Positions 10,072 to 54,130 of a DNA stretch of 64,000 bases are shown one piece after another. Source of the stretch: Naegleria gruberi (taxonomy: Eukaryota). The notes beneath the pieces were generated by a model, which made no database searches, was not told the DNA's origin, and was given only the letters and a program-made list of their open reading frames with translations. A program made the position numbers and the translations under genes. Each line of letters starts with the position of its first letter. Position 1 is the first letter of the stretch. The stretch is from the NCBI GenBank assembly GCA_000004985.1, contig GG738854.1. One strand, 5' to 3'.

Positions 10072-11013
10072 ATGTTCTCCTCAAGCAATCAAACTTCATC
10101 ATCGGAAAAATCACAATCATTATTAAATAATTCCCTCCATGAACACTGGGATAGTATAATAACGAGGGATAAATTAGCAATTTTAAAAACAAATAATTTC
10201 ATAGTAATTGATGATTTCCTGCCTCTCCACCAATCAAATAATAACAATTCCGAAAATAATTTCTATGAAAAGATTGTTTCTCTCTCAGAGAATAATCTCC
10301 TCACACGAGAGGAATCATACATGGAGGATGAAGATAGTGGACAAGTGATACAAATTGGACAACATCCTTTCTACACATTAAAGATGATTAAGAAGGAACA
10401 TGAAAAATCATCAATTAAGGAACATGTTGATATGTATGCTCTCACTACACAGATTGGACAATATTTTCAAAGGAGAGTTGTATTTGATGAAATATTAAAA
10501 AAGCCAGATGAGTCAATCGATGATGATTTCTTTAATAAGGTTGCATTGTGTAAGGATTTTGAGAATGGACTTCCAGTTCATTTGGATAATCATAATGCTG
10601 ATAGTAGAAAGCTGACGATTGTTTATTATACAACTCCATATGTGGATAATCAAGAGGAGAAACAACAAATGGAAAAGAAATATAAAGGATTTCAATTTGA
10701 GGAGAGAAATTGGGAAGGTGGATTATTGAGAGTTTACAAACCATCAACCAAGTTGTATATTAATTATTGGGAAACTGAGAAGGAAGATATTGAACCTAAA
10801 TTCAATAGAGCTGTCCTCTTTTACAGTGATACCATAGTTCACACAGTTACAGAGACGAAACCAAAGGCAAATTTGAATCAAATTGTTAATAATACTGAAA
10901 TGCATCCACCTCGAACAACAATCACCACATGGATCCATTGCAATGACATGTCCTTCATTTGTCGAGATAGGGTCCTATTCCAAAGACAAATGATCAAATT
11001 CTTCCAGAACTAA
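10072..11013 (+). CDS. 2OG-Fe(II) oxygenase (prolyl-4-hydroxylase-like)
   Basis: An HxD motif (VHLDNH) is followed by a TIVYY strand, GGLLRVY, and a distal His in NRAVLFYSDTIVHTV. This is the jelly-roll iron-binding triad arrangement of P4H-type dioxygenases. Confidence 0.45.
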   Translation: MFSSSNQTSSSEKSQSLLNNSLHEHWDSIITRDKLAILKTNNFIVIDDFLPLHQSNNNNSENNFYEKIVSLSENNLLTREESYMEDEDSGQVIQIGQHPFYTLKMIKKEHEKSSIKEHVDMYALTTQIGQYFQRRVVFDEILKKPDESIDDDFFNKVALCKDFENGLPVHLDNHNADSRKLTIVYYTTPYVDNQEEKQQMEKKYKGFQFEERNWEGGLLRVYKPSTKLYINYWETEKEDIEPKFNRAVLFYSDTIVHTVTETKPKANLNQIVNNTEMHPPRTTITTWIHCNDMSFICRDRVLFQRQMIKFFQN

Positions 11014-11171: not shown

Positions 11172-14100
11172 TTGTTGTTGGTATTTAGCCACCCATTCAA
11201 AAAAAACAACGACAAACACTCGGTGTTCCATCATCACACATCTTTTGTTGAATTATTTGGGGATGATGATAGTGCCACTATGGTTTTGAAACGACATCAT
11301 GATGAAGAACAGAATTATCTTAATCAGGATGGGAAGAAATTAAAGATATTATTGTTGTGGACAATGATAATGATGATTTGTTGTTATTCATCAATGTGTT
11401 TTAATATATTTGTGAATGGTACTTCCGAAGAATTATCCATACTTCCAATAATTGCATCATCATCTTCACCACCAATAAGAAGAATATCAACAAAACCAAC
11501 ATTAGCATTGGATCAAACCATTAGACAATTAGTGAATGAAATTATACATGAAGACCTCACCTATTCATCTTCCTTATCATCACCATCCACAAGAACATCA
11601 TTATCATCATCATCTCTATTAGGAACATCATCAGATGAAGAAAGTGTTACTGTCTATGTGAATCCACAGAATGGTTCTGATAGTATTGGATGTTCATCGG
11701 ATGCCATTACTTCATGTAAGACAATTCCATTCTCTTTGGATGATTTAAAAACAAATAGGAAAATTGTGAATACGAAACAGATTCTTCTCTATTTGCAGGC
11801 ATCTATTGAAGAGAAAGATGTTGGAGATGCTATTAATTGTAAAGGGTTTAATTTTACTGGAATTAACTTTTCTGAGGTTAAAATTTCAGCAAATAGTCCA
11901 GTAATTGTTAATTGTAATTATGTTTCGAATTGGAGTTCTAGTTTTAGATTTAATTTGACAATGAGTAATATAGTGTGGAGGAATTTTAATATTCCAATAG
12001 TTTCCACAATGGACTCAATTGTCATTGAAAATTCAGTGATTCAGAATGTAACCATTTCCATGTCAAAATTTCTCAATATTCGAAACTGTAGAGTTACCAG
12101 TGATGGAGCTGATTTTAGTATTCTTCATATGAATGATATTGAAAATGTGATAATAAGCCAGACGTCATTTGAGAAGAAAGCTATTGGATATTCCATTTCT
12201 AGAATTTCCTCAAATATTTATATTGAAAATATTAGTGTGGATAATAGTTTATTGATCTTTTATGGATTTGTTAGCATGGTAGATGGTTCTTCAGTGAAAA
12301 ATTCTCTCACTTTAGTGGATAGCAGATTCACAGCAAGTACAGTGAGGATTATTGAATTTAGTGAAATCTTTTTCAGGAATAATACTCATTCAGGAAATAT
12401 TCTACCTACAAACATTCCAAATATTGTCTCGTCATACTTTTCAGAGTATAGCTATTCTGGATTTTCTGTGAGCTGCCTCACTGTGAGAAGTGATTTGAGG
12501 GTGAGGAATGTAACAGTGGAGAATATGAAATTATATGGAGGAGCACTGATTGAAGGCCCAGGTCTGTATGCTCGATTCTTTGATTCCATTTTCAAAAATA
12601 ATAAGAATAACCTTGGAGGAGGAGCTATTCATGTGAGGACTGTTTTCAGAGTTTTCATTGAAAATGTCCAATTCCTTTCTAATAGTGTAGATTCTTCTAA
12701 TGGAAAATTAGGTTTGGATTACATTGGAGGTGGAGCCATTTATCAATACAGAAGTGTCCTCATCACCAGTGGCTGCTACTTTGACAGTAACAATGGTGGT
12801 ATATTTGGTGGAGCCATCTTTAGTTTCTTACCACTTGAATACTTTTCATTGGATGATAATTTCGTTTCCAATACTGCTGGTTATGGAGGAGGTTATGCCA
12901 GTATGGATACCATTTCCATTTCTCAAATTGCATTTACAGATACCTCCATGATAGGTAATAATTGTTCAAATTCTGGAGGTGCCATTTTCACAATGAATTC
13001 TGAAATTACATTCAGTTATGGATCTTCAGATTTCAAATCCATTTCTGGAAATAATGCAAATCTTTTGGGAGGTGGTATTTTCTTTATTAATTCAAAGCCA
13101 TCATTTGCATATAGAAGAATATCCAAAATATTTGTGAATAATTATTGTAAGGCATCTCCTTATTTATCAGATTATTCTTCATTTGCAACTGAAATTCAAA
13201 CAACTCCATCTGATTTTACCCTTAAACCTGGTACTGCGGATATTTTACTTTTTGATTTATATGACATGTTTGGAAATCAAGTTCCTTTCACGTCTAATTT
13301 AGAGATTGAAATGTCTTCAGATGATGCAATCTATCCAGAGATTAGTTCAATGAACTCACTTGCAACTGGTTTCCAAAAAAGATTTACTTTTACAGTTTAT
13401 TTGAAAACAAACCGATTTCTAACATTTAACACAACTGTGAATATGGTTATTGGTTTGACTAATATTCCATACGAAAAGAATTTGAATTTAAAGGTGAAAT
13501 TACAGAGTTGTTCGAGTGCAGAATCTCTAGTAGTCAACCTTTTCAAGAGTTCTACATCTAGGGTTTATTATGAATGTGGACCAAATGCAGCCTTGGTAGC
13601 TTCCTTAGTTGTCCTGGCATCTTGCTGTTGTGGAGCGTGTTGCCTTATTTTCTGTGTCTTTATTACTTATAAATTTGTAAAGATGAGAGGTCAGGTTGCA
13701 CTTTTAGCAAAGAAGGAAAAAGCTGAGGAAGAATTGACTAAAAAACTGATGGATCTCCAAACACTTTATAATAGTGAATTGGAAAATAAGCACTCATACA
13801 AGGAATGGCTTATTAAATTGGATGATGTGGAATTGATTAAGAAAGTTGGTGAGGGAGGAGGTGGAATTGTCTATTTGGCTAATTGGAAACGAGTTCCAGT
13901 TGCTTTGAAAACTATCAAGATTGAAGATGAGGATTTGGATTCTAATGATTTTGAACATGAGGCATCACTTTTGAGCTCAATTAGACATCCACATATTGTA
14001 ACATTTTATGGTAAGTTTACAATAATTTGGACCCATATCAAACAATTTTATTAGGAGTTTGTTTATCTAATTCTGCCAAATTCATGGTTACTGAATTTAT

Positions 14101-14981
14101 GCATGGAGGAAGTTTGGATACCTTTATTTATGGCTTGAAAAATCATAAAAAGAAGATTTCGTTCGTGCAAAAGATTAGAATACTTTCGAATATTGCTTCT
14201 GGAATGTCCTATCTCCATGACCGTTGCATCATGCACAGAGATTTGAAACCTGGAAATATTTTACTTTCGAATGAATTAACAGCAAAGATTACAGACTTTG
14301 GCTTGTCAAAACTCTATACTACGGATAGTGGAAGCATGACCAAGACTTGTACAGTTGGAACTTTACTATGTAAGTATTAGTTATTTGTTTAAATTGATTT
14401 GTTAATTTCCAATGTTAAAGATATGGCACCGGTATGTGAAATATTCTTAGATTTTTGTTAATATGTAATTAAATGATAATAGGAAGTTTTATTAGGAACT
14501 AAATATGATGAAAAGTGTGATATTTACAGTTTTTCTATTATAATGTGGCAAGGTGAGTATAAAATGGAATTTGTGAGAATATTTAATATGATTTCAACAA
14601 GTCTTATTTGAGGAATCGTCACTATTCAATTCATCCTACGTGAATGATCCTAAATACAGCTTAATTATGACAGAAACTCAAAAATTGGCTTTCAAGAATT
14701 TGAATGAGGCCTACATGGTTGTTCCAAAGATGGTAACTGAAGGTTTGAGACTTCCGTTACCTTCCTTGCCATTAAGTGATAGCTATGTGGATTATTGGAT
14801 ATATGCAGATTGTGGAGATAAAAAAGTGGGTGCCACTCTTAAGGATAGTTATGATTTCGTACTGGCAGGAATGTTTAAATTGATTGAGGAATGTTGGAAT
14901 GCAGAGGTAGCTCAAAGACCACCATTCACTCGTATAGTGGATAAATTAGTGGAATTTGAAAAAACTTTACAAAGTAAATAA
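11172..14981 (+). CDS. Receptor-like protein kinase with a Pmp-like beta-helix ectodomain; exons 11172-14010, 14055-14369, 14421-14431, 14483-14552, 14602-14981 (~1204 aa)
   Basis: The ectodomain carries repeated GGAI/GGGI and FxxN motifs (GGGAIHV, GGGAIYQY, GGAIFSF, SGGAIFTMNS, GGGIFFINS). A transmembrane segment follows (LVASLVVLASCCCGACCLIFCVFITY). Kinase subdomains are assembled across four small introns: GEGGGGIVYLA, VALK, HRDLKPGNILL, DFGLSK, GTLLYMAPEVL, DIYSFSIIMW and CW...RPPF. All splice phases are consistent. Confidence 0.65.
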
Positions 14982-15020: not shown

Positions 15021-17375
15021 TTATTGAGCCTTATAGATAAATACTTGATCATAACTTCCAACGAAGAGTTCACCTGTTTCATCTAAAATATCTACTGCTT
15101 GAATTGGAATATCATTAACTAAAATCTTATCATAACCTTCCAAATTGACCAAACGAACACTCTTGTGATAATCATTCAACAAAATATTTCCAGTAGCTCT
15201 ATCAAGTCTCATTGAATCTGTATGTGCTCCAGCATTGTGTGTCTTTAAGATTCTTCCTTTAGAATTAATGAGATAGATTGTTGAACTATCTCCAATGTAG
15301 AATTGATCTTCAACGCCAGAATACAAGACAGAGCAGAAGCAATAATAACGAGATTTTCCTTGGGAATCTTCTGAAATGACTTTTCCACTCTGACCATCCT
15401 TTGTACACATTTGGATAATTTGAGTTCCACAACCTTCCGTCAAGCACATAATTGAAGAATCTAATTGGTTGACTGCAATGTAACGTGGAATGAATTTAAA
15501 TCCTTTTTGTTCTCTGTTATGATAATCAACTTTCCACATGATATCTCCTTCATAACTGAATTTGTAAAATGCATCAGTAGCCACAACGATTGTATCCTCA
15601 TTGTAATCTATATCAATATCATAAATACTTTGACAATCTCCAACTGGAACCTTAATTGTCTTGATGTGTCTCTTTGTTGTCAAATCAAAGATGTGAACTT
15701 TCAATCTTTCAGCCACAAGCAAATGCTTTTTCTTTTGATGAACAACCATGGCAATCAATCCTGAAAATTTGAACTCACCACAATCTTCTTCATCACCCAA
15801 TATAGCTAATCTCTTCATATTTCTATTTGGAGTGACCTTTGGTGGTTGAGTAACTGGTAATGGTCTAATTCCCATTTGAGAAACCAAGTGAGCTTCACCA
15901 GATTTGTAAATTACAATCTTATTGTGGAATGAGACGTATAATTCACCCAATTGATCAGAAACTTCACAACAACTTGTGCCACCTTCTTCAGCAAAACTCT
16001 TTGAATAACCTTCCATATTAACAAACTTGATGCATTTGTGATAATCACTCAAAATGAGACAACCAGTGTAATGGTCAACTCTCAATGAATCAGGAGTAGC
16101 TTCCAATTGATGAGTTTTCAAAATTTTACCAGTTGAGTCAATCAAGTAAATTGTTGAACTATCTCCAATATAAAATTGATCTCCATAACCAGAATAACAA
16201 ATAGAATGGAAGCAATAATAACGAGATTTTCCTTGAGAATCTTCTGAAATGACCTTTCCACCTTTTCCATCCCTTGTCATGATTTGCAATACTTGAGTTC
16301 CACTTCCTTCAGTTGCACACAACACAGACGAATCAGCTTGGTTGACTGCAATATAACGTGGCACAAATTTCATTCCCTTTTCTTCCATATTTTGTGAATT
16401 GAGTTTCATTATCAAATCTCCTTCAAAATTAAGCTTGAAAAGCGAATAATCTGCAATGACATAAAAAGTGTCATCATTGTAATCAATGTCAATATCAGTT
16501 GGATAACTGCCACTTCCCCATAAATGGTTACAATTCAAAGTTTTCAAATTTCTCTTGGTGTTCAAATCGAAAATGTGAATATATTTCCAATCAGCAACGA
16601 AAAGCCAATTTCTCTTTTGATGGACAACCATTGCATAGACATTTTGAAATTTGAATTCGCCACAATCTTCTTCTTCGCCCAAAGTTGCAATTTTTTGATA
16701 GGTTAAATTACGTGGAGTTGGTTTTTGTGGAATACTTGTTGGTAAATGTTGTGGAATTTGAGTTTGTGGTTGACCAAATGGTTGTTGTTGAGGTGGAGGA
16801 ACACCAGTTTGAGGTGGAAATTGTCCATAAGGAATTTGAGTTTGTGGTTGTCCATATGGTTGTGGTTGACCTGGAATGCCAGTTTGAGGTGAATATTGTG
16901 GTTGACCATAAGGTTGATTTACGTATTGTGGAGGATATTGTTGAGGAGGAACATTTGGTTGACCATAATATCCTTGTTGAGGTGGATATTGTTGATTAGT
17001 TTGTGGTTGACCAAATGGTTGAATTTGTGGTGAATATTGACCAACAACATTTGGTTGACCAGTTGGAGGAGGAATTTGAGAAGTACCAATTGGTTGTTGA
17101 CCTACTTGTGGTGAATATTGTGGTTGTCCATAATATCCTTGTGGAGGATATTGTGGTTGTCCATATGGTTGTGCATAACCTCCATAATAACCTCCTTGTG
17201 GTTGTTGTTGTTGTGGAGGATATCCATAACCTTGTTGTGGTGGATATTGTGGTTGACCATATGGTTGTTGTTGTGGATGGGGTGGGTATTGGTAATAGCC
17301 TTGTTGTTGTTGTTGTGGAGGTTGGTGTTGACCAGTAGTTGGTTGAGAGTTTGTTGGTGGTGTGTTAATTGACAT
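15021..17375 (-). CDS. Prion-like P/Q/Y-rich N-terminus plus two tandem NHL-like propeller domains (784 aa)
   Basis: Single ORF. The first ~230 aa are degenerate GQPQYPPQ-type repeats. Two ~270-aa units follow, each starting LG(E/D)EEDCGEFKF and ending ...VSEDSQGKSRYYCF...DQFYIGDSSTIYLI. Both units are homologous to the B-box paralog propellers. Confidence 0.55.
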   Translation of the reverse strand: MSINTPPTNSQPTTGQHQPPQQQQQGYYQYPPHPQQQPYGQPQYPPQQGYGYPPQQQQPQGGYYGGYAQPYGQPQYPPQGYYGQPQYSPQVGQQPIGTSQIPPPTGQPNVVGQYSPQIQPFGQPQTNQQYPPQQGYYGQPNVPPQQYPPQYVNQPYGQPQYSPQTGIPGQPQPYGQPQTQIPYGQFPPQTGVPPPQQQPFGQPQTQIPQHLPTSIPQKPTPRNLTYQKIATLGEEEDCGEFKFQNVYAMVVHQKRNWLFVADWKYIHIFDLNTKRNLKTLNCNHLWGSGSYPTDIDIDYNDDTFYVIADYSLFKLNFEGDLIMKLNSQNMEEKGMKFVPRYIAVNQADSSVLCATEGSGTQVLQIMTRDGKGGKVISEDSQGKSRYYCFHSICYSGYGDQFYIGDSSTIYLIDSTGKILKTHQLEATPDSLRVDHYTGCLILSDYHKCIKFVNMEGYSKSFAEEGGTSCCEVSDQLGELYVSFHNKIVIYKSGEAHLVSQMGIRPLPVTQPPKVTPNRNMKRLAILGDEEDCGEFKFSGLIAMVVHQKKKHLLVAERLKVHIFDLTTKRHIKTIKVPVGDCQSIYDIDIDYNEDTIVVATDAFYKFSYEGDIMWKVDYHNREQKGFKFIPRYIAVNQLDSSIMCLTEGCGTQIIQMCTKDGQSGKVISEDSQGKSRYYCFCSVLYSGVEDQFYIGDSSTIYLINSKGRILKTHNAGAHTDSMRLDRATGNILLNDYHKSVRLVNLEGYDKILVNDIPIQAVDILDETGELFVGSYDQVFIYKAQ
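15024..16700 (-). repeat. Internal tandem duplication of a ~270-aa propeller-like domain (copy 1 ~16700-15900, copy 2 ~15830-15024)
   Basis: The two halves align residue by residue. Examples are LGEEEDCGEFKFQNVYAMVVHQKRNWLFVADWKYIHIFDLNTKRNLKT against LGDEEDCGEFKFSGLIAMVVHQKKKHLLVAERLKVHIFDLTTKRHIKT, and KFVPRYIAVNQADSSVLCATEGSGTQVLQI against KFIPRYIAVNQLDSSIMCLTEGCGTQIIQM. Confidence 0.55.
16701..17372 (-). repeat. Low-complexity coding repeat (P/Q/Y/G-rich, degenerate octapeptide GQPQYPPQ units)
   Basis: Direct inspection of the translation. The antisense frame gives artefactual V/E-rich ORFs (16685-17338 +). Confidence 0.6.
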
Positions 17376-20645: not shown

Positions 20646-23600
20646 TTATTTCTTGTTCTTTCTTTTAACAAAAATGCAAACGACAACAATTAAAGCAATA
20701 ATTGTACCAATGACACACAATCCACCAACACTACCAACAATGGCAGCAATCAATACAGTATTATCTTGTAGAATGGCTGCATCTTCCTTGTTTGGTTGAC
20801 TTGTTGCTTTTTTGTAATTTTGGTCAATTACTGAAAAGGATGTCAAATGATTTGTGTTACATTTGATTGACAATGTTACGGTGACATTTCCATCGGCAAG
20901 TTGCTGAGTAATGATTTGATTTTGAATTTCAGTTTCCAATCCATCTGATTTCCATTCTTTTGAATTTTCATCCAAGTAAACACATGAAATATTCAATTTT
21001 TCTATATTTGGTAGAGTTAATGTTACATTTTCAAAGGAGAATGAAATTGGTTGTTGCAAATTTTGGACTGTAATCTTTTCATTTGAATTTGATTTCAATA
21101 AAACTAATGAAACAACTTGAGAAATTACAGCAGTTTCGGATTTCTTACTTTCAGATAGAGAAGAAACTACTTGAACTGAATCATTCTTCAGAGAAATTTC
21201 AGAACTTTGAAGATATTGAGAAATGATTGATGGAAGTGAAATTGAAATGGATGGAGTTGACGAAAATTGAATAGTCTTTGAATCTAATTGAGTGATATTC
21301 GAAACTATGCTTGTTTGAGATTCAGTTGTGTTGAAAGATGAAGATGAGCAAACAGTTGAAGTTGGATAAAGAGTACAATAATCAGCAATAGAACAATCCA
21401 ATCCTGAATATCCAGTCAAGCAAGAGCAACTATTCAATGCTTGACAAGTTCCCTTACCAGAACAAACTTTCGAATCATCAAACGAAACTCCATAACATGT
21501 TGTAATGTTACACACCAATCCACCCGATGGTAATTGATTCATAATATATCCAACTGGACAATAAGGAGTCAACATTCTAATTCTCATATTCATGGTATCA
21601 GCAAATACAATTCTGCCATCTTTCAAAGTTGATAATCCTGTTGGATTGTTCAACAATGAATTCTTTGCATTGGAAGAATCTCCATTGAAACCTGCTTGGA
21701 AAGGTTTTCCTGCAATTAAGGTGATATTTCCAATCAAGTCAACCTTTCGAATAACATTATTATTGGTATCTGCAATAATCACTTCTCCATTTGGTAAATA
21801 AGCAACTGAGCTTGGGTTATTGAGATAGGATTGAGTTGCCAATTCATTTTCTGGCATTGAAACAATACCTATATTAGTTCCCTTTCCTGCAATAGTTGTC
21901 ACTTTGCCTTTTCCAGAAATATCTGTCTTTCTAATTTTGTTATTTCCTGAATCGGTAAATAGAATTTGATTATTAAGAATTCTAATATCATTAACAAGAT
22001 TAATATTTGTCTTATTGGCAAAATTATCTCCATTATCAGTGTAATAATAAGCACCAACCACTGAATCAATTAATCCACTTGAAAATGAAACCTTTCGAAT
22101 TCTATAATTTCCCTTATCGGAAAGGTATAGATCTGTATCAGTAAGGGCCATAGACGAAACAGTTGACAGCTCAGAATTGACAGCTAAACCTCCATCTCCA
22201 ATTCCACCAGCTATCGTAACAACCTGTCCAGACGAAACCTTTCTAATCAAATACACATCGACAAAATAAACTTCACCATTCCAATAAACTACACATTGAG
22301 GAACGGCAATACTTGTGGACAAAGCAGGTCCATCACCAGTTGTGGCCATATAGGACACTAGTCCAGCAATAGTCGAAACCATATTCGAACCATAAATCAT
22401 TCGCTTAATGCCATGAGTAGACGGACTGTCAAAGTACAAATCTCCGTTCGGAGCGAATGAAATTGCAGAAACTCCGCCAATATTTGTTGCATTGGCTAAA
22501 CTTGTGGCAGAAAGTGATTGACCACCTCCAATTACTGTATAGACCTTTCCATCTTGTGAATTAACTCTTCTAATGAGATATTTTCCAGTACTACCACCAA
22601 TGTCAACAAAATACAATTCTAAACTAATTGGATGAATAGCTAAACCTCTTGGATAAACTGAGGTGGAAGTGGCATTGAATCCATCTGCAGTGAAGGCGGA
22701 AGATCCTGTTCCAATAACTGTGTAGATTTTACCTGTGCTGGCATCAATCTTTCTAATTCTGTAATTCTGGTTTTCTTTTTAAAAATTATATTAGAAATAG
22801 TTTTGAATAAACTTACCTGAATAGAAAATATCACCATTACTTGCATTAACGCAAATACCAGATGGATAATTCATATTTGTGGAGAGCGCAGACAATCCCT
22901 CTCCATTATATGTGGTATTTCCTGTTCCAGCAATTGTTGTAATATTTCCAGAGACGAAACTCAACTTTCTAATTCGATTGTTGGAAGATTCTGTAATTAA
23001 CAAATCACCATTTGGTGTGAAAGCTAGAAAACCTGGTCCATTTAACTTGGCTTTCAATGCTGGTCCATCTACATATCCTGCTGAACCAGTTCCTGCTACA
23101 GTGGAGATGACACCTTTCGAATCAATCTTTCGAATAGTGTGACTGCCCTTATCACTGATGAAAACTTCACCACTTGTTGAGATTGCTATTCCTTCTGGGC
23201 TTGACAATCTAGCTGCAGTAGCTGGATATCCATCTCCAGAGCTATAAGCTTGTGAACCAGCAAAAGATGAAATAAGCTTATTAGAATCGGTTAGTTTCTT
23301 AATTCCAATAGTGGTACCAATGTAAATATCACTTGAGGATTCTGATTGAGTAACTGAAATGGGAGTATAAAGCGAAGTTAAATTTCCCAATTTTCCATCA
23401 GTGTCCAATTCGATAATTCCAGTTCCAGCCACACGGTCAACCAATGAATTTCCATAATTAGCAACTGAATTAAGTTTTAAAACAACTCCAACTGAACTAT
23501 CCACTACCAACAATTCATCTCTTTTAGAATTATAAAATGTAGATACTGGATTCAAAAGTGAAATATTCGAAACATTTCCTGAAAGTACTTGATATCTTAT

Positions 23601-24967: not shown

Positions 24968-25662
24968 TTTTTTTTCTTCGCTACTAGTAGGAAACGATAA
25001 CAACTAAACTTGGTGTGTGTGAAATTGAGAGATATGTTCCAGTACAGAAAAAGTGTTGGGTTGGAATGGGAAACCATGTCCTGGAAAAGAAGTATCAACA
25101 CTATGCGTTGAAACACGGTAAGATATTGCAAACTCAATGAAGAAGGGCTTTTTTATCTAACGTCAGCAAAAAGTCATAACTCAATTGTTAGTAATCTTAC
25201 TAACATTTTTTTCGTAGCCGTAGTACTTGGTAGTATATATTACAATGCTTCATGAATGCCTTTTGCAATAATATTTCCATCAAGAAATTAGTTAAGGATA
25301 TGTAGAGATAGTAATGGACTGTACACTTTTGTAATTAGAAAGGAAGATTCATCAACAATATTTTACCAACAGCCAGTAAGCACAATACAACGTGGCGAAG
25401 TCAAAGGACGTGATGAAAAAAACAAAAGAAAAAGAAGGCGGGAAAAAAATCCTTGCAACCTCACTTCTTACCATCATCACGCTACATCAAAGCTGGTAAA
25501 GTATCGGAGTGAATGAACAATATGCAGGCTTCTGTTTAGTTTCTTGCCAGCCATGTTCTTCATCCTTTGCTTCCTGTTGAAAGTGGTATTATCAACAAGT
25601 TGTCAAATTCACCTTTCAACCTTTGAATTTTGTTTTTTCCGTTCAGATTTCAATTAAAAAAA
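24968..25662. promoter_or_regulatory. Divergent intergenic region between the NHL receptor-like gene and NHL-BTB copy A; 25048-25662 is repeated at 26886-27496
   Basis: The two flanking genes are head-to-head. The upstream ~250 bp is also conserved (~80% identity, inverted) at 53843-54130, upstream of copy C. Confidence 0.35.
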
Positions 25663-26835
25663 TGTCTTCACTTGCTACCAGTGCACAACTGAATTCTCCT
25701 TTTGGTGTTTTTGTTTCATCAAATAATGAAGTTTATATTGCTGATTATGGTAATCAAAGAATTAGAAAAATATTAAAAAATGGAAATATTGTAACAATTG
25801 CTGGAAATGGAACTGCTGGATTCAGAGGTGATAATGGTCCTGCAACAAATGCACAACTGTATAATCCTTATAGCGTTTTTGTTTCATCAAATAATGAAGT
25901 TTATATTGCTGATTTTAGTAATCATAGAATTAGAAAAATATTAGAAAATGGAAAAATTGTAACAATTGCTGGAAATGGAACTGGTGGATTCAGTGGTGAT
26001 AATGGTCCTGCAACAAATGCACAACTGAATAATCCTTATAGCGTTTTTGTTTCATCAAATAATGAAGTTTATATTGTTGATTATAATAATCATAGAATTA
26101 GAAAAATATTAAAAAATGGAAATATTGTAACAATTGCTGGAAATGGAACTGGTGGATTCAGTGGTGATAATGGTCCTGCAACAAATGCACAACTGAATAA
26201 TCCTATGGGTGTTTTTGTTTCATCAAATAATGAAGTTTATATTGCTGATTATTATAATCATAGAATTAGAAAAATATTAGAAAATGGAAATATTGTAACA
26301 ATTGCTGGAAATGGAACTGCTGGATTCAGTGGTGATTCACCTTTTGATATTAGAACGTATCCTCATATTGGAAATAAGTTATTAACTGGAAATGGTAACT
26401 TACATTCTAAAATAGAATTTCATAATTTGAAAAAACATTCAAGAGATGAATTATTTGGATTGCCAATTTATGGATTCATTCCCCTCATTGAAAAAACTTC
26501 ACCAAAATTTAGTAACATTTTGAAGAATGAAAAGATACTTTGTTTGATGAGTTCATCACAACAAGAAATTATTCAAAAATTAATTGACTCTTTGATATAC
26601 GATAAGAATAAGGTAAAGTTTAACAAAGAAGAAATGTTGGATGTTTTATTCATTTTGGGTTTATTTAAGAATGGTGAATTTATTGATTTGAAAAGATCAT
26701 TAACAAGTGAATTTGTGAACTCACTCACATTAGAAAATCTTACTTTCAAATGGGAAACAATTGAAAATTTACTCAAAATTTGCAAGGAGGAATTCAATGT
26801 TCAAAATTACATTCTTGATCATTTGAATAACTATG
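25048..26835 (+). repeat. Tandem duplication unit 1 (promoter plus NHL-BTB gene)
   Basis: 25048-25662 is ~99% identical to 26886-27496, differing only by indels, e.g. ggaatggg against ggatggg. The coding parts are also near-identical. Confidence 0.7.
25663..26835 (+). CDS. NHL-repeat plus BTB/POZ family protein, copy A; the 3' end is lost in the assembly gap
   Basis: Start MSSLATSAQLN. Four near-identical 57-aa NHL units (NAQLNNPYSVFVSSNNEVYIADYNNHRIRKILENGNIVTIAGNGTGGFSGDNGPAT) are followed by a linker (KKHSRDELFGLPIYG...). The ORF runs directly into the N run. By comparison with copies B and C the missing part should hold the BTB domain. Confidence 0.6.
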
Positions 26836-26885
26836 NNNNNNNNNNNNNNNNNNNNNNNNNNNNNNNNNNNNNNNNNNNNNNNNNN
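26836..26885. other. Assembly gap (50 N) inside a tandem duplication
   Basis: A literal run of n characters. It is flanked by the truncated copy A and the re-start of the duplicated upstream sequence. Confidence 0.95.
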
Positions 26886-29538
26886 AAAGTGTTGGGTTGG
26901 ATGGGAAACCATGTCCTGGAAAAGAAGTATCAACACTATGCGTTGAAACACGGTAAGATATTGCAAACTCAATGAAGAAGGGCTTTTTTATCTAACGTCA
27001 GCAAAAAGTCATAACTCAATTGTTAGTAATCTTACTAACATTTTTTTCGTAGCCGTAGTACTTGGTAGTATATATTACAATGCTTCATGAATGCCTTTTG
27101 CAATAATATTTCCATCAAGAAATTAGTTAAGGATATGTAGAGATAGTAATGGACTGTACACTTTTGTAATTAGAAAGGAAGATTCATCAACAATATTTTA
27201 CCAACAGCCAGTAAGCACAATACAACGTGGCGAAGTCAAAGGACGTGATGAAAAAAACAAAAGAAAAAGAAGGCGGGAAAAAAATCCTTGCAACCTCACT
27301 TCTTACCATCATCACGCTACATCAAAGCTGGTAAAGTATCGGAGTGAATGAACAATATGCAGGCTTCTGTTTAGTTTCTTGCCAGCCATGTTCTTCATCC
27401 TTTGCTTCCTGTTGAAAGTGGTATTATCAACAAGTTGTCAAATTCACCTTTCAACCTTTGAATTTTGTTTTTTCCGTTCAGATTTCAATTAAAAAAATGT
27501 CTTCACTTGCTACCAGTGCACAACTGAATTCTCCTTTTGGTGTTTTTGTTTCATCAAATAATGAAGTTTATATTGCTGATCAAAGTAATAAAGAATTAGA
27601 AAAATATTAGAAAATGGAAATATTGTAACAATTGCTGGAAATGGAACTGCTGGATTCAGAGGTGATAATGGTCCTGCAACAAATGCACAACTGTATAATC
27701 CTTATAGCGTTTTTGTTTCATCAAATAATGAAGTTTATATTGTTGATTATAATAATCATAGAATTAGAAAAATATTAAAAAATGGAAATATTGTAACAAT
27801 TGCTGGAAATGGAACTGGTGGATTCAGTGGTGATAATGGTCCTGCAACAAATGCACAACTGAATAATCCTATGGGTGTTTTTGTTTCATCAAATAATGAA
27901 GTTTATATTGCTGATTATTATAATCATAGAATTAGAAAAATATTAGAAAATGGAAAAATTGTAACAATTGCTGGAAATGGAACTGGTGGATTCAGTGGTG
28001 ATTCACCTTGGTCCTGCAACAAATGCTCAACTGAATAATCCTTATAGCGTTTTTGTTTCATCAAATAATGAAGTTTATATTGTTGATTATAATAATCATA
28101 GAATTAGAAAAATATTAGAAAATGGAAATATTGTAACAATTGCTGGAAATGGAACTGGTGGATTCAGTGGTGATAATGGTCCTGCAACAAATGCACAACT
28201 GAATAATCCTATGGGTGTTTTTGTTTCATCAAATAATGAAGTTTATATTGCTGATTATTATAATCATAGAATTAGAAAAATATTAGAAAATGGAAATATT
28301 GTAACAATTGCTGGAAATGGAACTGCTGGATTCAGTGGTGATTCACCTTTTGATATTAGAACGTATCCTCATATTGGAAATAAGTTATTAACTGGAAATG
28401 GTAACTTACATTCTAAAATAGAATTTCATAATTGAAAAAACATTCAAGAGATGAATTATTTGGATTGCCAATTTATGGATTCATTCCCCTCATTGAAAAA
28501 ACTTCACCAAAATTTAGTAACATTTTGAAGAATGAAAAGATACTTTGTTTGATGAGTTCATCACAACAAGAAATTATTCAAAAATTAATTGACTCTTTGA
28601 TATACGATAAGAATAAGGTAAAGTTTAACAAAGAAGAAATGTTGGATGTTTTATTCATTTTGGGTTTATTTAAGAATGGTGAATTTATTGATTTGAAAAG
28701 ATCATTAACAAGTGAATTTGTGAACTCACTCACATTAGAAAATCTTACTTTCAAATGGGAAACAATTGAAAATTTACTCAAAATTTGCAAGGAGGAATTC
28801 AATGTTCAAAATTACATTCTTGATCATTTGAATAACTATTGTATTGAATATGCTGTTGTTCAAATGAGGACTAAAGAAGGAAACACTGTATTACCGACTC
28901 TTCCAATAATTATGAGAAATGGTGTTGCCATTTTTTCAAAAATGATCATTACTAAACCAACTGCAATTAATATTGAGGAAACAATTGAGATTAAACCACA
29001 AACAATTGAATCATTATATAATGACAAGAAAACAAGTGATGTGAAAATCAAAATGGGACAAAACAAATACTTATATTGTCACAAAACTGTATTGAGTTCA
29101 TCAAGTACATTGTTTAATGCATTATTTGACAGTGGATCTTGTTTCAGTGATTTAAGTGATGATGGAATATTCACACCTGACGAATCAGAAGATTTAGAAT
29201 TATTGGAAATTGTGATCAAACATTGTTATGGAATTTCAATTGACAAAATTGATGCTGTTAAAATTATTGGATTACTTGATATGGCAATGAAACATGAAAT
29301 TCAATATCTGGTCGATTATTGCAAGAATAACTTTAATCTATCCATTGATAATTACTTTACAATACTTGAAGCATGTGAAAAATATCTTGATTTACAACCA
29401 TTTGAGCAATTTATGAGAGATATTATCAAATTTAGCATTACCAACAGAAAACAACTTTTCAAGGATCGCAATAGAATTTCCAACTTACCTGAAAAAGTTT
29501 GGCAAGAAATGGTCTTCAAGTTTTCACAGGACTTTTGA
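26886..29538 (+). repeat. Tandem duplication unit 2 (promoter plus NHL-BTB gene copy B)
   Basis: As for unit 1. Confidence 0.7.
27497..29538 (+). pseudogene. NHL-repeat plus BTB/POZ protein, copy B; at least three frame disruptions (apparent pseudogene or assembly/indel errors), with the BTB-containing part 28432-29538 intact
   Basis: A 1-nt deletion plus divergence at ~27583-27612 leads to a TAG. An internal junction at ~28000-28012 fuses the end-of-array sequence (ggtgattcacctt) to a mid-repeat sequence (ggtcctgcaacaaatgc). At ~28427 the T run is one T shorter (cataattgaaaaaac) than copy A (cataatttgaaaaaac), shifting the frame in front of the BTB ORF. The BTB motif itself is clear: DVKIKMGQNKYLYCHKTVLSSSSTLFNALFDSG...LELLEIVIKHCYG...IIGLLDMAMKHEIQYLVDYCKNNF. 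Confidence 0.5.
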
Positions 29539-30237
29539 GATTATTTTGGATAGATAATTACAATCTATATTAAAACATTCTTTTATTTGCAAATGACAAC
29601 ACATGAACATAATCGAAACACAATAACCAAATACAGAAAATACTCAACAAGTAGCATATGTAGAGCAAAAAACAAATCTCAATTAAGCAGCAGCGAGAAG
29701 GTTAGAATACACCACCAATCAGACCAAGAAACCTCAGCCCCAAACGCACAGTCTTGGACTTTGCGCATACATGAAAGGCTTCAATTAAAATTCCTGGTCT
29801 GCTCGGTATTATTATTATACATGTTGCTAGCCTTGTCGACGAATGGAAAACCAACTACTCCTCCTCCATCTCGTGCTAATGTTGTTCTTGTTCTGGTTGT
29901 TATTAAATGTCTACTATCGGCTGGATATTGTTGATGATGATGAACATGATCATTATGATGGCCGTGGTCAGGATGTTGATCAGAATTAATACGAGTCGTG
30001 ATGGAGTGTAAAGTTAGGTTATTGTTGTTATTATTCTCAACATGGTTGCATGAAAGGAAAAGAAGGCGGTCGAAATCTTTATCTATTTGTTCAAAGTTTG
30101 GTGAATGAGCAGTGTTGTTGTTGGTCGCTGCCATGATGTTGTTAATATGATTACAGCTTAGCGTGGTTAAAAGCTAAAAGGAAAGTTTTGTTTTTTTTGT
30201 TTTTGAAATTTATTTTTAATTTTGTAAAACTTTCGTC

Positions 30238-49290: not shown

Positions 49291-50290
49291 TTTCTTATTG
49301 TTGTTGTTGTTGTGATATCTTGAAGATTAGGATAATATTATTGGAAACTGAAGGATAACATTATGATAACAAGCACAATGCAATAGGGTTGCGTTATTTG
49401 TGCGATAAACAATGCAATTGCATTGCGCAGAAACACGAAACAATTTAAACATTATCAGTCTGAATACGAAACCTACCTATTCTTTGCCGGCAATTTATTC
49501 GAAACAAAATAATCTCTCAAGTGTTGTCTGTTTTTTTTCTGTGTGTATTTTGCATCTCTCTGAGATGTTGATATCTGTTCAAGTGAACATTTCTATGAAA
49601 ATACAAAAAGAAGCACTTGCCATTTTGGAGGCGGAAGAAAGCTGACGAAAGGAATTTTTTAGCTAGTCTGCATTTTAATTGTATAATTCTGTCTAAATGT
49701 TGAGTTGCTTGTCTTTGGGTTGTCTTTCTGTGTTGGTTTCTGATTTGATGTGCGAAATGTAGAGATATTTCGAATAGAGTAAGGTTGAGGGTTGCATCTA
49801 TTGAATTCGCGATGTTGCTTTTGAGATTTCTACATAATAGTATGGAATGGCCACATTGTAAATATGTAGAAATTTACAAAATTCACATTGAAGGAAGTTG
49901 TGACATTGAAGGAAGTGGGAGAAACGAAACTCCATTGCATTTTTGTTTAGTTTTGTTGAATCTTGGGTGAAAGGTTTGGTGTTTGTTTCCATTCCTTGCG
50001 CATCATAAAATGCAATATAGCAATTAGGAAGTGAAAGTTCAGATTTAATAACCGATTGAGCAGAATAATAGATACTGTCGTTTGGCAGTTCATATTTCTG
50101 AACAGAATGCTAGCCGTTCGATAGATGGAAAGTTGTGTTTCAATTTGAATGAGAGGCAAAGTGGAAAGGAATCTCATGGAAAGTAATGGAAGAACAACAA
50201 ATCATGGTTTTGGCAACTTGCTTTCAAACTGAAACACACTCGGCACCTCTTTTAACTGTTGTCTTAACTATGTTGTTTGAAATATTGGAT

Positions 50291-50380
50291 GGTGCGATGG
50301 TCGAGTGGTCTAAGACGACACGTTAAGGTATTCTAATACCGTGTTCCGCAAGGGCGTGGGTTCAAATCCCACTCGCATCA
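50291..50380 (+). tRNA. tRNA-Leu(AAG): tRNA-Leu (anticodon AAG), class II, with a 10-nt intron (50329-50338) 3' of position 37
   Basis: Folded by hand. The acceptor stem ggtgcga pairs with tcgcatc (one G-U) and the discriminator is A. The D-arm is gtc/gac with an 11-nt loop gagtggtctaa. The anticodon stem acacg pairs with cgtgt, and the loop is ttAAGg plus c once tattctaata is removed. A long variable arm and a T-arm gtggg-ttcaaat-cccac complete the fold. No encoded CCA. Confidence 0.8.
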
Positions 50381-50382
50381 AA

Positions 50383-51384: not shown

Positions 51385-51635
51385 AATTTACAAAAACTGT
51401 TACATGGAATAGGTACACGGTGATAATTATTTGAATTGAATAAACTCTCAATATTTATTCGATTTAATTCTTTCAAAGTTCCAAAAATTTAGAATTGGTT
51501 GTTCTCGATATTTTGATGAACATTTAATCATGCGTCTTGTTAAATTCCTCGATTAATTTCCAATCGAATATCTTACATTGCTGAAATACAATATTGACAG
51601 TGATTCCACTATTCACATAACATATCCAAATAATC

Positions 51636-53842
51636 TCAAAAGTCCTGAGAAAGCCTTAAGAGCATTTCTTGACAAACTTTTTCAGGTAATTTGTAAATTC
51701 TATTGGTGTGATCCCTGAAAAGTTGTTTTCTGTTGGTAATGCTAAACTTGACAATCTCTCTCAAAAATTGCTCAAATGATTGTAAATCAAGATATTTTTC
51801 ACATGCTTCAAGTATTGTAAAGTAATTATCAATGGATAGATTAAAGTTATTCTTGCAATAATCGACCAGATATTGAATTTCATGTTTCATTGCCATATCA
51901 AGTAATCCAATAATTTTAACATCATCAATTTTGTCAGTTGAAATTCCATAACAATATTTGATCACAATTTCCAATAATTCCAAATCTTCTGATTCGTCAG
52001 GTGTGAATATTCCATCATCACTCAAATCACTGAAACAAGATCCACTGTCAAATAATGCATTAAACAATGTGCTAAATGAAGTCAATATAGTTTTGTGACA
52101 ATATAAGTATTTGTCTTGTCCCATTTTGATTTTCACATCACTTGTTTTCTTGTCATTATATAATGATTCAATTATTTGTGGCTCAGTTTCAATTGTTTCC
52201 TCAATATTAATTGCAGTTGGTTGAGTAATGATCATTTTTGAAAAAATGGCAGTAGCATTTCTCATAATTATTGGAAGAGTTGGTAATAAAGTGTTTCCTT
52301 TTTTGGTCCTCATTTGAACAACAGCATATTCAATACAATAGTTATTCAAATGATCAAGAATGTAATTTTGAACATTGAATTCCTCATTGCAAATTTTGAG
52401 TAAATTTTCAATTGTTTCCCATTTGAAAGTAAGATTTTCTAATGTGAGTGAGTTCACAAATTCACTTGTCAATGATCTTTTCAAATCAATAAATTCACCA
52501 TTCTTAAATAAACCCAAAATGAATAAAACATCCAAGATTTCTTCTTTGCTAAACTTTACCTTATTCTTATCATACATCAAAGAATCAATTAATTTTTGAA
52601 TAATTTCTTGTGATGAACTCATCAAACAAAGTAACTTTTCATTCTTCAAAATGTTACTAAATTTTGGTGAAGTTTTTTCAATGAGGGGAATGAATCCATA
52701 AATTGGCAATCCAAATAATTCATCTCTTGAATGTTTTTTCAAATTATGAAATTCTATTTTAGAATGTAAGTTACCATTTCCAGTTAATAACTTATTTCCA
52801 ATATGAGGATACGTTCTAATATCAAAAGGTGAATCACCACTGAATCCAGCAGTTCCATTTCCAGCAATTGTTATAATATTTCCATTTTCTAATATTTTTC
52901 TAATTCTATTATTATAATAATCAGCAATATAAACTTCATTATTTGATGAAACAAAAACACTAAAAGGATGATTCAGTCGTGCATTTGTTGCAAGACCATT
53001 ATCACCATTGAATCCATGAATTCCATTTCCAGCAATTGTTATAATATTTCCATTTTCTAATATTTTTCTAATTCTATTATTAAAATAATCAGCAATATAA
53101 ACTTCATTATTTGATGAAACAAAAACACTATAAGGAGATTCAGTCGTGCATTTGTTGCAAGACCATTATCACCATTGAATCCATGAGTTCCATTTCCAGC
53201 AATTGTTATAATATTTCCATTTTCTAATATTTTTCTAATTCTATTATTAAAATAATCAGCAATATAAACTTCATTATTTGATGAAACAAAAACACTATAG
53301 GATGAATTCAGTTGTGCATTTGTTGCAAGACCATTATCACCACTGAATCCATGAATTCCATTTCCAGCAATTGTTACAATATTTCCATTTTCTAATATTT
53401 TTCTAATTCTATGATTACCTTGATCAGCAATATAAACTTCATTATTTGATGAAACAAAAACACTGCAAGGAGTATACAGTTGTGCATTTGTTGCAAGACC
53501 ATTATCACCACTGAATCCATGAATTCCATTTCCAGCAATTGTTATAATATTTCCATTTTCTAATATTTTTCTAATTCTATTATTACCTTGATCAGCAATA
53601 TAAACTTCATTATTTGATGAAACAAAAACACTGTAAGGACGATTCAGTTGTGCATTTGTTGCAAGACCATTATCACCACTGGAACCCTTAGTTCCATTTC
53701 CAGCAATTGTTACAATAGTTCCATTTTCCAATATTTTTCTAATTCTATTATTAAAACAATCAGCAATATAAACTTCATTATTTGATGAAACAAAAACATT
53801 ATTAGGTCGATTCAGTTGTGCACTGGTAGCAAGCGAAGACAT
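51636..53842 (-). CDS. NHL-repeat plus BTB/POZ family protein, copy C (inverted relative to copies A and B); one frameshift near 53127
   Basis: Start MSSLATSAQLNRPNNV, then six NHL units. The frame is lost at aatc-tcctta, where the other repeats have aatcatcctta. The reading then continues into an intact linker and BTB domain (DVKIKMGQDKYLYCHKTILTSFSTLFNALFDSG) ending at 51636. Confidence 0.5.
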
Positions 53843-54130
53843 TTTTTTAATTGTAATCCGAACGGAAACAACAAAATTCAAAGGATGAAAGGTGAATTTG
53901 TTGATACTTCATTCAACAGGAAGCAAAGGATGAGCAATAGACCCTAAGAAGAAAGCAACCAACATATGATGAGGAACATGGCAAGAAACTGAAAATATTG
54001 CCTGAATATTGGTCATTCACTCCGATACTTTACCTGACTTCAAAGCAACAGAGGAAATGCTATGATGAAGCGTATTACTCAAGATGAAGAATACACTGTA
54101 AATCCTACTTTGCTGAGAGTGGTGAAGCAT
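53843..54130. promoter_or_regulatory. Upstream region of copy C, homologous (inverted, ~80%) to the upstream region of copies A and B
   Basis: The reverse complement begins ggtaaagtatcggagtgaatga..., as at 25496-25517, and shares conserved blocks up to the ATG. Confidence 0.3.

What the first reader, a model, noticed from the sequence alone, without database searches (positions are those of the whole stretch)
11172..14981. Transmembrane kinase whose ectodomain carries chlamydial Pmp-type GGAI / FxxN beta-helix repeats
At least six GG[AG]I motifs, each preceded by FxxN- or SxxN-like turns, span ~450 aa. This is the hallmark of polymorphic-membrane-protein (autotransporter passenger-like) right-handed beta-helices. 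Here they sit on a eukaryotic single-pass kinase with complete catalytic motifs. Pmp-like helices on a signalling kinase would be an unusual ligand-sensing ectodomain, possibly of horizontal origin.
Basis: partly seen in the sequence, partly recalled or inferred. Interest (0 to 1): 0.5.

Follow-up and report, generated by a model that had tools for sequence, protein, structure and literature searches.

The report
Amoeba receptor kinase with Pmp-type beta-helix ectodomain
This gene encodes a single-pass membrane protein kinase whose outer part is a rod-shaped beta-helix built from the repeat motif first named in Chlamydia surface adhesins; it belongs to a small, uncharacterised family in Naegleria-like amoebae and is a receptor-kinase design I found described in no searchable paper.

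Summary
The gene has five exons on the + strand, CDS 11280-14981, and encodes 1168 aa. The order is signal sequence, Ser-rich linker, beta-helix, Ig-like domain, one TM helix, conserved juxtamembrane helix, then a TKL-type kinase with every catalytic motif.

Seven GG(A/G)(I/L/Y) motifs lie at aa 420-600, most preceded by FxxN. None of 20,000 shuffles reached that count. The excised repeat region passes Pfam Chlam_PMP (22.4 bits, cut-off 20.6). A family profile retrieves hundreds of PF02415/Beta_helix proteins, with E-values down to 5e-46.

Co-linear homologues occur in Naegleria gruberi, N. lovaniensis and Willaertia magna, so the fusion is old and heterolobosean. It is not a chlamydial Pmp: there is no autotransporter barrel or Pmp middle domain, and PF02415 is spread across bacteria, archaea and eukaryotes. 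Horizontal origin is neither shown nor excluded.

The likely function is a contact or ligand-sensing receptor kinase. This is an inference. I rate it a new variant of a known kind, of moderate interest.

The parts
11280..14981 (+). Whole CDS of the receptor-like kinase (1168 aa). Exons are 11280-14010, 14055-14369, 14421-14431, 14483-14552 and 14602-14981. The stop codon TAA is at 14979-14981.
   Evidence: Read from the sequence and translated. The splice model restores motifs conserved in the Naegleria and Willaertia homologues.
11280..11405 (+). N-terminal signal sequence or anchor (aa 1-42). The hydrophobic core is aa ~22-42.
   Evidence: Hydropathy scan. The homologues P0001 and P0166 begin with comparable hydrophobic leaders.
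11448..11639 (+). Ser/Thr/Pro-rich low-complexity linker (aa 57-120), probably mucin-like.
   Evidence: Read directly from the sequence. It is not conserved in the family alignment.
11640..11966 (+). N-terminal cap region of the ectodomain (aa 121-229), carrying the conserved NG-DS--C------PCK motif.
   Evidence: The motif is conserved in alignment A1. AF2 confidence is low here, pLDDT below 50.
11967..12518 (+). Beta-helix coils without the GGAI motif (aa 230-413, about 7 coils).
12519..13154 (+). Pmp-type (PF02415) beta-helix coils (aa 414-625). There are 7 coils. In each, GG(A/G)(I/L/Y) starts strand 1 and FxxN closes strand 3.
   Evidence: Motif positions and shuffle test. Pfam PF02415 at 22.4 bits, E 1.2e-4, 3 stretches. 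Invariant F, N, G-G-G, A and I columns in the family. Strand map.
13170..13580 (+). Membrane-proximal Ig-like beta-sandwich (aa 631-767), with the conserved D-x-FGN motif and two invariant Cys (aa 744 and 766).
   Evidence: AF2 strands. Foldseek matches to S-layer SbsC domains and to the invasin InvE and FdeC bacterial Ig-like domains. Invariant G530, D541, C623 and C645 in ectodomain numbering.
13584..13670 (+). Single transmembrane helix (aa 769-797). It is Cys-rich and is followed by a basic K-F-V-K-M-R stretch.
   Evidence: Hydropathy scan. The TM segment is at the same position in all homologues.
13671..13829 (+). Conserved juxtamembrane helix (aa 798-850): KEKAEEELTKKLMDLQTLYNSELENKHSYKEWLIKLDD.
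   Evidence: Highly conserved across the family: invariant K7, A10, E11, L14, K17, L18, Y25, K36, W38 and I40 in alignment A2.
13830..14942 (+). Protein kinase domain (aa 851-1156), interrupted by four introns. It is TKL/TK-like with an HRDLKPGN catalytic loop. A family-specific insert lies between subdomains X and XI.
   Evidence: Pfam PF07714 at 3e-53 and PF00069 at 2e-50. Motifs. The closest solved kinases are EGFR, Eph, ITK, CTR1, Pto and MLK1. The insert is conserved in homologues.
14421..14431 (+). 11-nt microexon encoding part of L-Y-M-A-P of the APE motif.
   Evidence: Read from the sequence. It is required to keep the frame, and it restores GTLLYMAPE, which is conserved in homologues.

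Best explanation
The locus encodes a type I (single-pass) receptor-like protein kinase of a heterolobosean amoeba.

Shown here (architecture): a leader sequence and a Ser-rich linker are followed by a right-handed parallel beta-helix of about 14 coils. The last 7 coils are PF02415 ('Pmp-type') coils. Next come one Ig-like domain with two conserved Cys, one TM helix, a strongly conserved juxtamembrane helix, and a TKL-type kinase with all catalytic residues.

Inferred (mechanism):
- The rigid, probably glycosylated beta-helix rod projects from the cell surface and acts as the sensing or adhesive module. It could bind a polymeric or surface-bound ligand, such as prey bacteria, cyst or extracellular matrix glycans, or another cell. 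Pmp and other passenger-type helices act this way as adhesins.
- Ligand-driven clustering or dimerisation is transmitted through the TM and juxtamembrane helices. This allows trans-phosphorylation of the Ser/Thr-rich activation loop (DFGLSKLYTTDSGSMTKTCTVGTLLYMAPE) and downstream Ser/Thr (possibly dual-specificity) signalling.

The helix motifs (F, N, GGG, A, I) form the structural core. The variable surface between them would carry ligand specificity.
For: - Gene model and motifs.
- Topology: two hydrophobic segments only (aa 22-42 and 769-797). There are 12 N-x-S/T sequons outside against 1 inside.
- Pmp-type repeats: 7 motifs, with 0 of 20,000 shuffles reaching that count. PF02415 scores above its cut-off on the excised region. 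Four of 7 family members hit PF02415. phmmer hits of the window ectodomain (E to 8e-26) are proteins with PF02415 at 1e-28 to 1e-53 and Beta_helix. The family profile finds 326 proteins; nearly all of the 120 listed carry PF02415.
- Ig-like domain.
- Active kinase of TK/TKL type.
- Conserved family with the same order of parts in N. gruberi (NAEGRDRAFT_80536 and _48784), N. lovaniensis (C9374_006686) and Willaertia magna (ABK040_001002). The ectodomain is 23-28% identical and the cytoplasmic part 46-55% identical. This is the pattern expected for a receptor with a fast-evolving sensing surface.
- Adhesive role of Pmp motifs: PMC2997323 (abstract listed).
Against: - No ligand, localisation, expression or kinase activity has been measured. 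The mechanism rests on analogy.
- PF02415 is not reported when the full-length protein or the whole ectodomain is scanned. It appears only on the excised repeat region, at a marginal 22.4 bits.
- The AF2 model rests on only 7 sequences, and its first ~107 residues are unreliable.
- The leader has an unusually long charged n-region, so a signal anchor cannot be excluded.
Confidence: 0.7

Rival explanations
1. The ectodomain is an enzyme tethered to a kinase. Like most pectin-lyase-fold proteins, it would be a glycan lyase, hydrolase or epimerase acting on bacterial or cyst-wall polysaccharide. Signalling would report substrate turnover rather than simple binding.
Against: Across 7 family ectodomains, no invariant Asp, Glu, Lys, Arg or His lies in the helix. 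The 19 invariant columns in the helix region (of 23 in the ectodomain) are all F, N, G, A or I, mostly at FxxN/GGAI motif positions. The only invariant acidic residue (D541, ectodomain numbering) is in the Ig-like domain. No glycoside hydrolase or lyase Pfam family is hit. PF02415-type helices characterised so far are adhesins (PMC2997323, PMC10715098).
Confidence: 0.1
2. The helix is a homophilic, self-associating module. Receptor molecules on the same or neighbouring cells would bind each other through the FxxN/GGAI face. The protein would then act in cell-cell contact or density sensing, not in recognising a foreign ligand.
For: Chlamydial Pmp fragments carrying these motifs mediate adhesion (PMC2997323, abstract). 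That Pmp fragments also self-associate is my own recollection and was not checked here. The motifs are the most conserved part of the ectodomain.
Against: In the model the motif residues start and end the coil strands, which fits a structural core rather than an exposed interface. Vahlkampfiid amoebae are largely solitary. No oligomer prediction or data are available.
Confidence: 0.12
3. The ectodomain exon was acquired recently from a bacterium, for example an amoeba-associated chlamydia, and fused to a host kinase.
For: The repeat was first defined in Chlamydia. The whole ectodomain lies in one intron-free 2.7-kb exon, while all four introns are in the kinase part. Amoebae commonly host chlamydiae (general knowledge).
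Against: - The same fused architecture is present in Naegleria and Willaertia at only 23-28% ectodomain identity, so any transfer is ancient.
- GC of the exon (0.34) equals that of the surroundings.
- No autotransporter barrel or Pmp middle domain is present.
- Less than a third of PF02415 proteins are chlamydial, and about 200 are non-bacterial (PMC11166332).
- The best outside hits are a mix of Gram-positive surface proteins and eukaryotic proteins from Physarum, Caulerpa and Protostelium. None is identified as chlamydial.
Confidence: 0.05
4. The reading frame is a gene-model artefact or a pseudogene. Two separate genes, a surface beta-helix protein and a kinase, would have been read as one.
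For: The model needs an 11-nt microexon. There is no transcript evidence, and the exact protein is absent from public collections.
Against: Ectodomain, TM, juxtamembrane helix and kinase N-lobe lie in one uninterrupted 2.7-kb exon. All introns have GT..AG ends and restore conserved kinase motifs. Four homologues in three other species are co-linear end to end.
Confidence: 0.02

Closest known systems
Uncharacterised heterolobosean transmembrane kinases: Naegleria gruberi NAEGRDRAFT_80536 (XP_002674732, 'FM172') and NAEGRDRAFT_48784, N. lovaniensis C9374_006686, Willaertia magna ABK040_001002
   Same: The order of parts is the same from end to end: leader, N-cap motif, beta-helix with GGGAI/FxxN coils, Ig-like domain with two Cys, TM, KEKAE...KHS.K.WLI juxtamembrane helix, and kinase with the same insert and EGLRLP(L/I)P motif.
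   Different: Identity is only 23-28% in the ectodomain and 46-55% in the cytoplasmic part. The Ser-rich linker and the Cys-rich TM helix are specific to the window protein. Intron positions differ from the Willaertia gene, and there is no synteny with it. None of these proteins has a described function.
Chlamydial polymorphic membrane proteins (Pmp; type V autotransporter adhesins)
   Same: Alternating FxxN and GGA(I/L/V) motifs, each pair forming one coil of a right-handed beta-helix. The Pfam PF02415 signature is shared (PMC11166332, PMC10715098).
   Different: There is no C-terminal autotransporter beta-barrel and no Pmp middle domain. The protein is anchored by an alpha-helical TM segment and coupled to a cytoplasmic kinase. 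The gene is eukaryotic and has spliceosomal introns. Only 7 motif coils are present.
Other PF02415/Beta_helix surface proteins of bacteria, archaea and eukaryotes (Gram-positive LPxTG-type proteins, Methanobrevibacter beta-helix proteins, Physarum, Caulerpa)
   Same: The repeat region is homologous, with profile E-values down to 5e-46.
   Different: They carry many more repeats (about 18-26 GG motifs against 7) and have no kinase.
Protostelium nocturnum (Amoebozoa) transcript EP01117_P006589 (P0189): PMP/Beta_helix ectodomain, TM and kinase
   Same: The overall design is the same: a PF02415 beta-helix outside, a single TM, and a TK/TKL-like kinase inside.
   Different: Its helix is much longer. 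It lacks the Ig-like domain and the KEKAE juxtamembrane helix. The kinase is only ~32% identical over the 74 aa that align. The fusion is probably independent.
Plant receptor-like kinases with wall- or glycan-sensing ectodomains (CrRLK1L such as THESEUS1, LRR-RLKs), and bacterial Hanks kinases with a C-terminal Beta_helix domain (P0032, P0048)
   Same: Single-pass kinases of TKL/IRAK-like sequence type. After the family itself, the plant RLKs are the closest kinase hits in the word-index search, at 30-35% identity. The bacterial examples show that a beta-helix can serve as the extracytoplasmic module of a kinase.
   Different: The plant ectodomains are malectin-like or LRR, not beta-helix. The bacterial proteins have the reverse order (kinase, TM, helix) and lack PF02415.

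Membership tests
Pfam PF02415 Chlam_PMP repeat superfamily | Tandem FxxN ... GGA(I/L/V) motifs at coil-length spacing | tested here: met
   There are 7 GG motifs at aa 420-600, spaced 26-37 aa apart. Six are preceded by [F/M/I]xxN. None of 20,000 shuffles reached the count.
Pfam PF02415 Chlam_PMP repeat superfamily | HMM score at or above the Pfam gathering cut-off (20.6 bits) | tested here: met
   The excised region aa 410-622 scores 22.4 bits, E 1.2e-4, with 3 stretches. The hit is not reported when the full protein or the whole ectodomain is scanned, so it is marginal. Support comes from 4 of 7 family members hitting PF02415 (best 5e-7). Further support comes from phmmer and profile links to strong PF02415 proteins.
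Pfam PF02415 Chlam_PMP repeat superfamily | Repeats form the coils of a right-handed parallel beta-helix | tested here: met
Chlamydial Pmp autotransporters (type Va secretion) | C-terminal autotransporter beta-barrel (PF03797) | tested here: not met
   No PF03797 hit at E<=10. The C-terminus is an alpha-helical TM segment plus a kinase.
Chlamydial Pmp autotransporters (type Va secretion) | Pmp middle domain between the repeats and the barrel | tested here: not met
   No such Pfam hit. The segment after the helix is an Ig-like domain.
Eukaryotic protein kinase superfamily, TKL/TK-like | Gly-loop, VAIK Lys, HRD catalytic loop, DFG and APE all present | tested here: met
   GEGGGG at 857, VALK with K877, HRDLKPGN at 971, DFG at 991, APE at 1018. 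PF07714 at 3e-53 and PF00069 at 2e-50. The nearest solved kinases are EGFR, Eph, ITK, CTR1, Pto and MLK1. The HRDLKxxN form suggests Ser/Thr or dual specificity (established kinase knowledge; not assayed).
Receptor-like (type I single-pass) kinases | N-terminal leader, one TM helix, extracellular N-terminal domain, cytoplasmic kinase | tested here: met
   Two hydrophobic segments only. Basic residues follow the TM on the C-terminal side. There are 12 sequons outside against 1 inside. Surface localisation itself cannot be tested with these tools.
Pectin-lyase-fold enzymes (polysaccharide lyases, hydrolases, epimerases) | Conserved catalytic acidic or basic residues on the helix face | tested here: not met
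   No invariant D, E, K, R or H occurs within the helix among 7 family members. No enzyme-family Pfam hit. The alignment is shallow, so this is not absolute.
Heterolobosean beta-helix kinase family (NAEGRDRAFT_80536-like) | Co-linear similarity across ectodomain, TM, juxtamembrane helix and kinase with its insert | tested here: met
   BLASTP against P0001 gives 1e-107 over aa 386-1160. phmmer and BLASTP ectodomain hits to P0051, P0053, P0166, P0057 and P0064. Alignments A1 and A2.

The most novel reading that the evidence does not exclude
Heterolobosean amoebae, and independently at least one amoebozoan (Protostelium), have wired a bacterial-adhesin-type Pmp beta-helix directly to a cytoplasmic kinase. 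This would be a previously unrecognised class of eukaryotic receptor kinase. The helix may have been captured long ago from bacteria and may be used to sense bacterial prey or surfaces. If so, its ligand could also show what PF02415 helices bind in Chlamydia and elsewhere.
Probability: 0.15. Interest if true: 0.7.

Novelty: new variant of a known kind. Interest (0 to 1): 0.42.

Why it matters
Receptor kinases arose several times in eukaryotes: animal RTKs, plant RLKs, Entamoeba TMKs. Each lineage uses its own set of ectodomains. A family that uses a Pmp-type right-handed beta-helix plus an Ig-like domain adds a distinct solution in Discoba, a deep and poorly studied branch that includes the pathogen Naegleria fowleri.

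It also places the FxxN/GGAI helix in a eukaryotic signalling setting. The function of that helix in Chlamydia is still debated. Here, ligand binding could be read out as kinase activation.

In practice the family is a candidate surface sensor or adhesin of free-living and pathogenic amoebae. The value is limited because homologues already sit in public databases as hypothetical proteins and nothing functional is known.

Tried and rejected
- The word-index search with the ectodomain alone returned nothing. The exhaustive representative search was needed to find relatives.
- Full-length and whole-ectodomain Pfam scans and the NCBIfam scan gave no beta-helix or PMP hit. Only the excised repeat region passed.
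- Single-sequence AlphaFold failed, with pLDDT 33. It was replaced by the 7-sequence alignment model.
- A PDB sequence search with the family profile found nothing meaningful.
- The afdb50 fold library was unavailable.
- The one metagenome scan, run with the cytoplasmic alignment, used generic kinase patterns. It returned only ~30%-identical unrelated kinases. None of the 80 loci encodes the ectodomain when searched with an HMM of A1.
- An exact look-up of the neighbouring 784-aa protein found no public record, so the source species stays unidentified.
- There are no paralogues of the ectodomain or kinase elsewhere in the 64-kb window. The genome-wide family size could not be surveyed.
- The Willaertia locus shows no synteny and has different intron positions.
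- Literature searches for Naegleria, Pmp, Chlam_PMP with kinase, and beta-helix receptor kinase found no description of this architecture. The DGF-1 preprint mentions Naegleria only as lacking DGF-1 modules.
- I considered and rejected a Dictyostelium origin, my first impression from AT-richness and the Q/P-rich neighbour. All co-linear (full-architecture) homologues are heterolobosean.
Full report
**Gene and protein**

The mechanical ORF 11172-14054 continues through four short GT..AG introns of 44, 51, 51 and 49 nt. Together they make a five-exon CDS: 11280-14010, 14055-14369, 14421-14431, 14483-14552 and 14602-14981. The 11-nt third exon supplies most of the YMAP codons of GTLL-YMAP-E. Without it the frame hits a stop. 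With it the protein matches the GTLL(Y/F)M(A/S)PE conserved in homologues.

The product is 1168 aa. Hydropathy shows only two hydrophobic segments, aa 22-42 (leader) and aa 769-797 (TM). The TM is followed by basic residues. The N-terminal side carries 12 N-x-S/T sequons against 1 on the C-terminal side. This fits a type I topology.

**Checking the observation**

The ectodomain holds GGAL at 420, GGAI at 447, 484, 510 and 566, GGGI at 597 and a degenerate GGGY at 536. These are spaced 26-37 aa apart. Four are preceded by FxxN and two by MxxN or IxxN. The sixth strict GG[AG]I, at aa 860, is the kinase glycine loop and should not be counted.

None of 20,000 shuffles of the ectodomain reached the observed counts. 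The maximum for the strict pattern in any shuffle was 2. The motif-bearing part spans about 180 aa rather than about 450. The kinase motifs are complete: GEGGGG, VALK, HRDLKPGN, DFG and APE.

**Profile evidence**

A Pfam scan of the whole protein reports only kinase families, PF07714 at 3e-53 and PF00069 at 2e-50. NCBIfam reports nothing relevant. When the repeat region alone (aa 410-622) is scanned, PF02415 Chlam_PMP is hit at 22.4 bits (cut-off 20.6, E 1.2e-4, 3 stretches).

An exhaustive phmmer search with the ectodomain found 115 proteins at E<=1e-3. The best fall into two groups:
- Full-length ectodomain relatives. These turned out to be Naegleria gruberi NAEGRDRAFT_80536 ('FM172') and NAEGRDRAFT_48784, N. 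lovaniensis C9374_006686, and unnamed ENA contigs.
- Repeat proteins that are themselves strong PF02415 (1e-28 to 1e-53) and Beta_helix proteins.

A seven-sequence ectodomain alignment (A1) has 23 invariant columns. The 19 in the helix region are all F, N, G, A or I, mostly at FxxN/GG(G)AI motif positions. Four of the 7 members hit PF02415 and 1 hits PF13229. Used as a profile, A1 retrieves 326 proteins; of the 120 listed, almost all are annotated PF02415, with or without PF13229 or PF05048, at E-values down to 5e-46.

**Structure**

Single-sequence AlphaFold was useless, with pLDDT 33. With A1 the model reached pLDDT 75.9 and pTM 0.76, and aa 230-768 are confident.

Mapping motifs onto the model strands shows that every GG-A-I opens strand 1 of a coil and every FxxN closes strand 3. 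There are seven such coils (aa 420-602), preceded by about seven motif-less coils (aa 230-413). This is the arrangement described for chlamydial Pmps (PMC11166332; PMC10715098).

**Family and organism**

The best full-length hit is Willaertia magna ABK040_001002, at 34% identity over aa 386-1160 with the same architecture. The cytoplasmic parts are 46-55% identical to the Naegleria and Willaertia proteins, and the ectodomains 23-28%. The juxtamembrane helix (KEKAE..ELT.KL.DLQ.LY..ELE.KHS.K.WLI) and the EGLRLP(L/I)P insert motif are family signatures.

The window itself has GC ~0.33 and 44-51-nt introns. Its neighbours are ordinary eukaryotic genes: ankyrin, 2OG oxygenase, cullin, RGS and NHL/teneurin-like. 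It is therefore a heterolobosean genome that is not in the protein collections. It is not W. magna, whose locus has GC 0.24, other neighbours and other intron positions. No paralogue lies in the window.

**What it is not**

It is not a chlamydial Pmp autotransporter. No barrel (PF03797) and no Pmp middle domain are present, and the C-terminus is a TM helix plus a kinase.

The name PF02415 misleads. Less than a third of its UniProt members are chlamydial and about 200 are non-bacterial (PMC11166332). Here the outside hits include Gram-positive LPxTG-type proteins, Methanobrevibacter proteins, and eukaryotic proteins from Physarum, Caulerpa and Protostelium.

An enzymatic ectodomain is unlikely, because no charged residue is invariant in the helix.

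Horizontal origin cannot be decided. Composition is native and the fusion is shared by two genera. The ectodomain exon has no introns, which is weak evidence either way.

**Mechanism (inferred)**

By analogy with receptor kinases and with passenger-type adhesins, the helix-plus-Ig stalk probably binds a surface or polymeric ligand, or another copy of itself. Clustering would then activate the TKL-type kinase through the conserved juxtamembrane helix. The HRDLKPGN loop and the Ser/Thr-rich activation segment point to Ser/Thr or dual specificity. That reading rests on established kinase knowledge and was not assayed. The closest solved kinases are EGFR, Eph, ITK, CTR1, Pto and MLK1.

**Comparison and novelty**

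The same design, a PF02415 helix with a TM and a kinase, occurs in a Protostelium nocturnum transcript. That protein has a much longer helix and no shared juxtamembrane region or Ig-like domain, so it is probably an independent fusion. Some bacterial Hanks kinases carry a C-terminal Beta_helix domain in the reverse order.

I found no paper describing this architecture. The homologues are deposited only as hypothetical proteins. I therefore rate it a new variant of a known kind: a receptor-like kinase with an ectodomain type not described in any paper I could search. The window gene is a new, divergent member of an uncharacterised heterolobosean family. Interest is moderate.

Noticed in passing
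window 14421-14431: An 11-nt microexon, flanked by 51-nt introns, encodes part of the kinase APE motif (L-Y-M-A-P). The Willaertia homologue has no intron here, and its introns lie elsewhere (in the Gly-loop and before STGMSY).
   Followed up: partly
window 25050-29552 (+) and 51623-53900 (-): A multi-copy gene family. The N-terminal part has NHL-like 'NNEVYIADY.NHRIRKIL.NG.IVTIAGNG' repeats. The C-terminal part is a 368-aa module present in two full ORFs (28432-29538 + and 51636-52742 -, 90.5% aa identity). The copies form tandem partial duplications at 97% nt identity and an inverted copy at 94% nt identity about 23 kb away.
   Followed up: partly
window 15021-17375 (-): The convergent neighbour is a 784-aa protein. 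It has a long Q/P/G/Y-rich low-complexity N-terminus and two tandem ~270-aa repeats (LGEEEDCGEFKF...). Pfam gives only a weak Mal s 1-like, beta-propeller-type hit. The exact protein is not in public collections.
   Followed up: partly
window 20646-22616 (-): An ORF with a teneurin-type NHL domain plus EGF-like domains (PF25021 at 5e-16, PF01436, PF07974). This is another putative surface protein near the kinase.
   Followed up: no
window 10072-11013 (+): The upstream neighbour is a 313-aa 2OG-Fe(II) oxygenase-superfamily protein (PF13640 at 6e-11).
   Followed up: no
window 50290-50381 (+): ARAGORN reports a 92-nt tRNA-like gene with an undetermined two-base anticodon. It may be an intron-containing or degenerate tRNA.
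   Followed up: no
window 13584-13670 (aa 769-797): The TM helix is unusually Cys-rich (SCCCGACCLIFC, 7 Cys). Homologues do not share this. The Cys may be acylation sites or may contribute to helix packing.
   Followed up: no
P0166 (N. gruberi NAEGRDRAFT_80536): UniProt names this homologue 'Uncharacterized protein FM172'. From my own recollection, the FM prefix comes from the flagellar-motility phylogenetic-profile set in the N. gruberi genome paper. I could not verify this in the searchable literature.
   Followed up: partly
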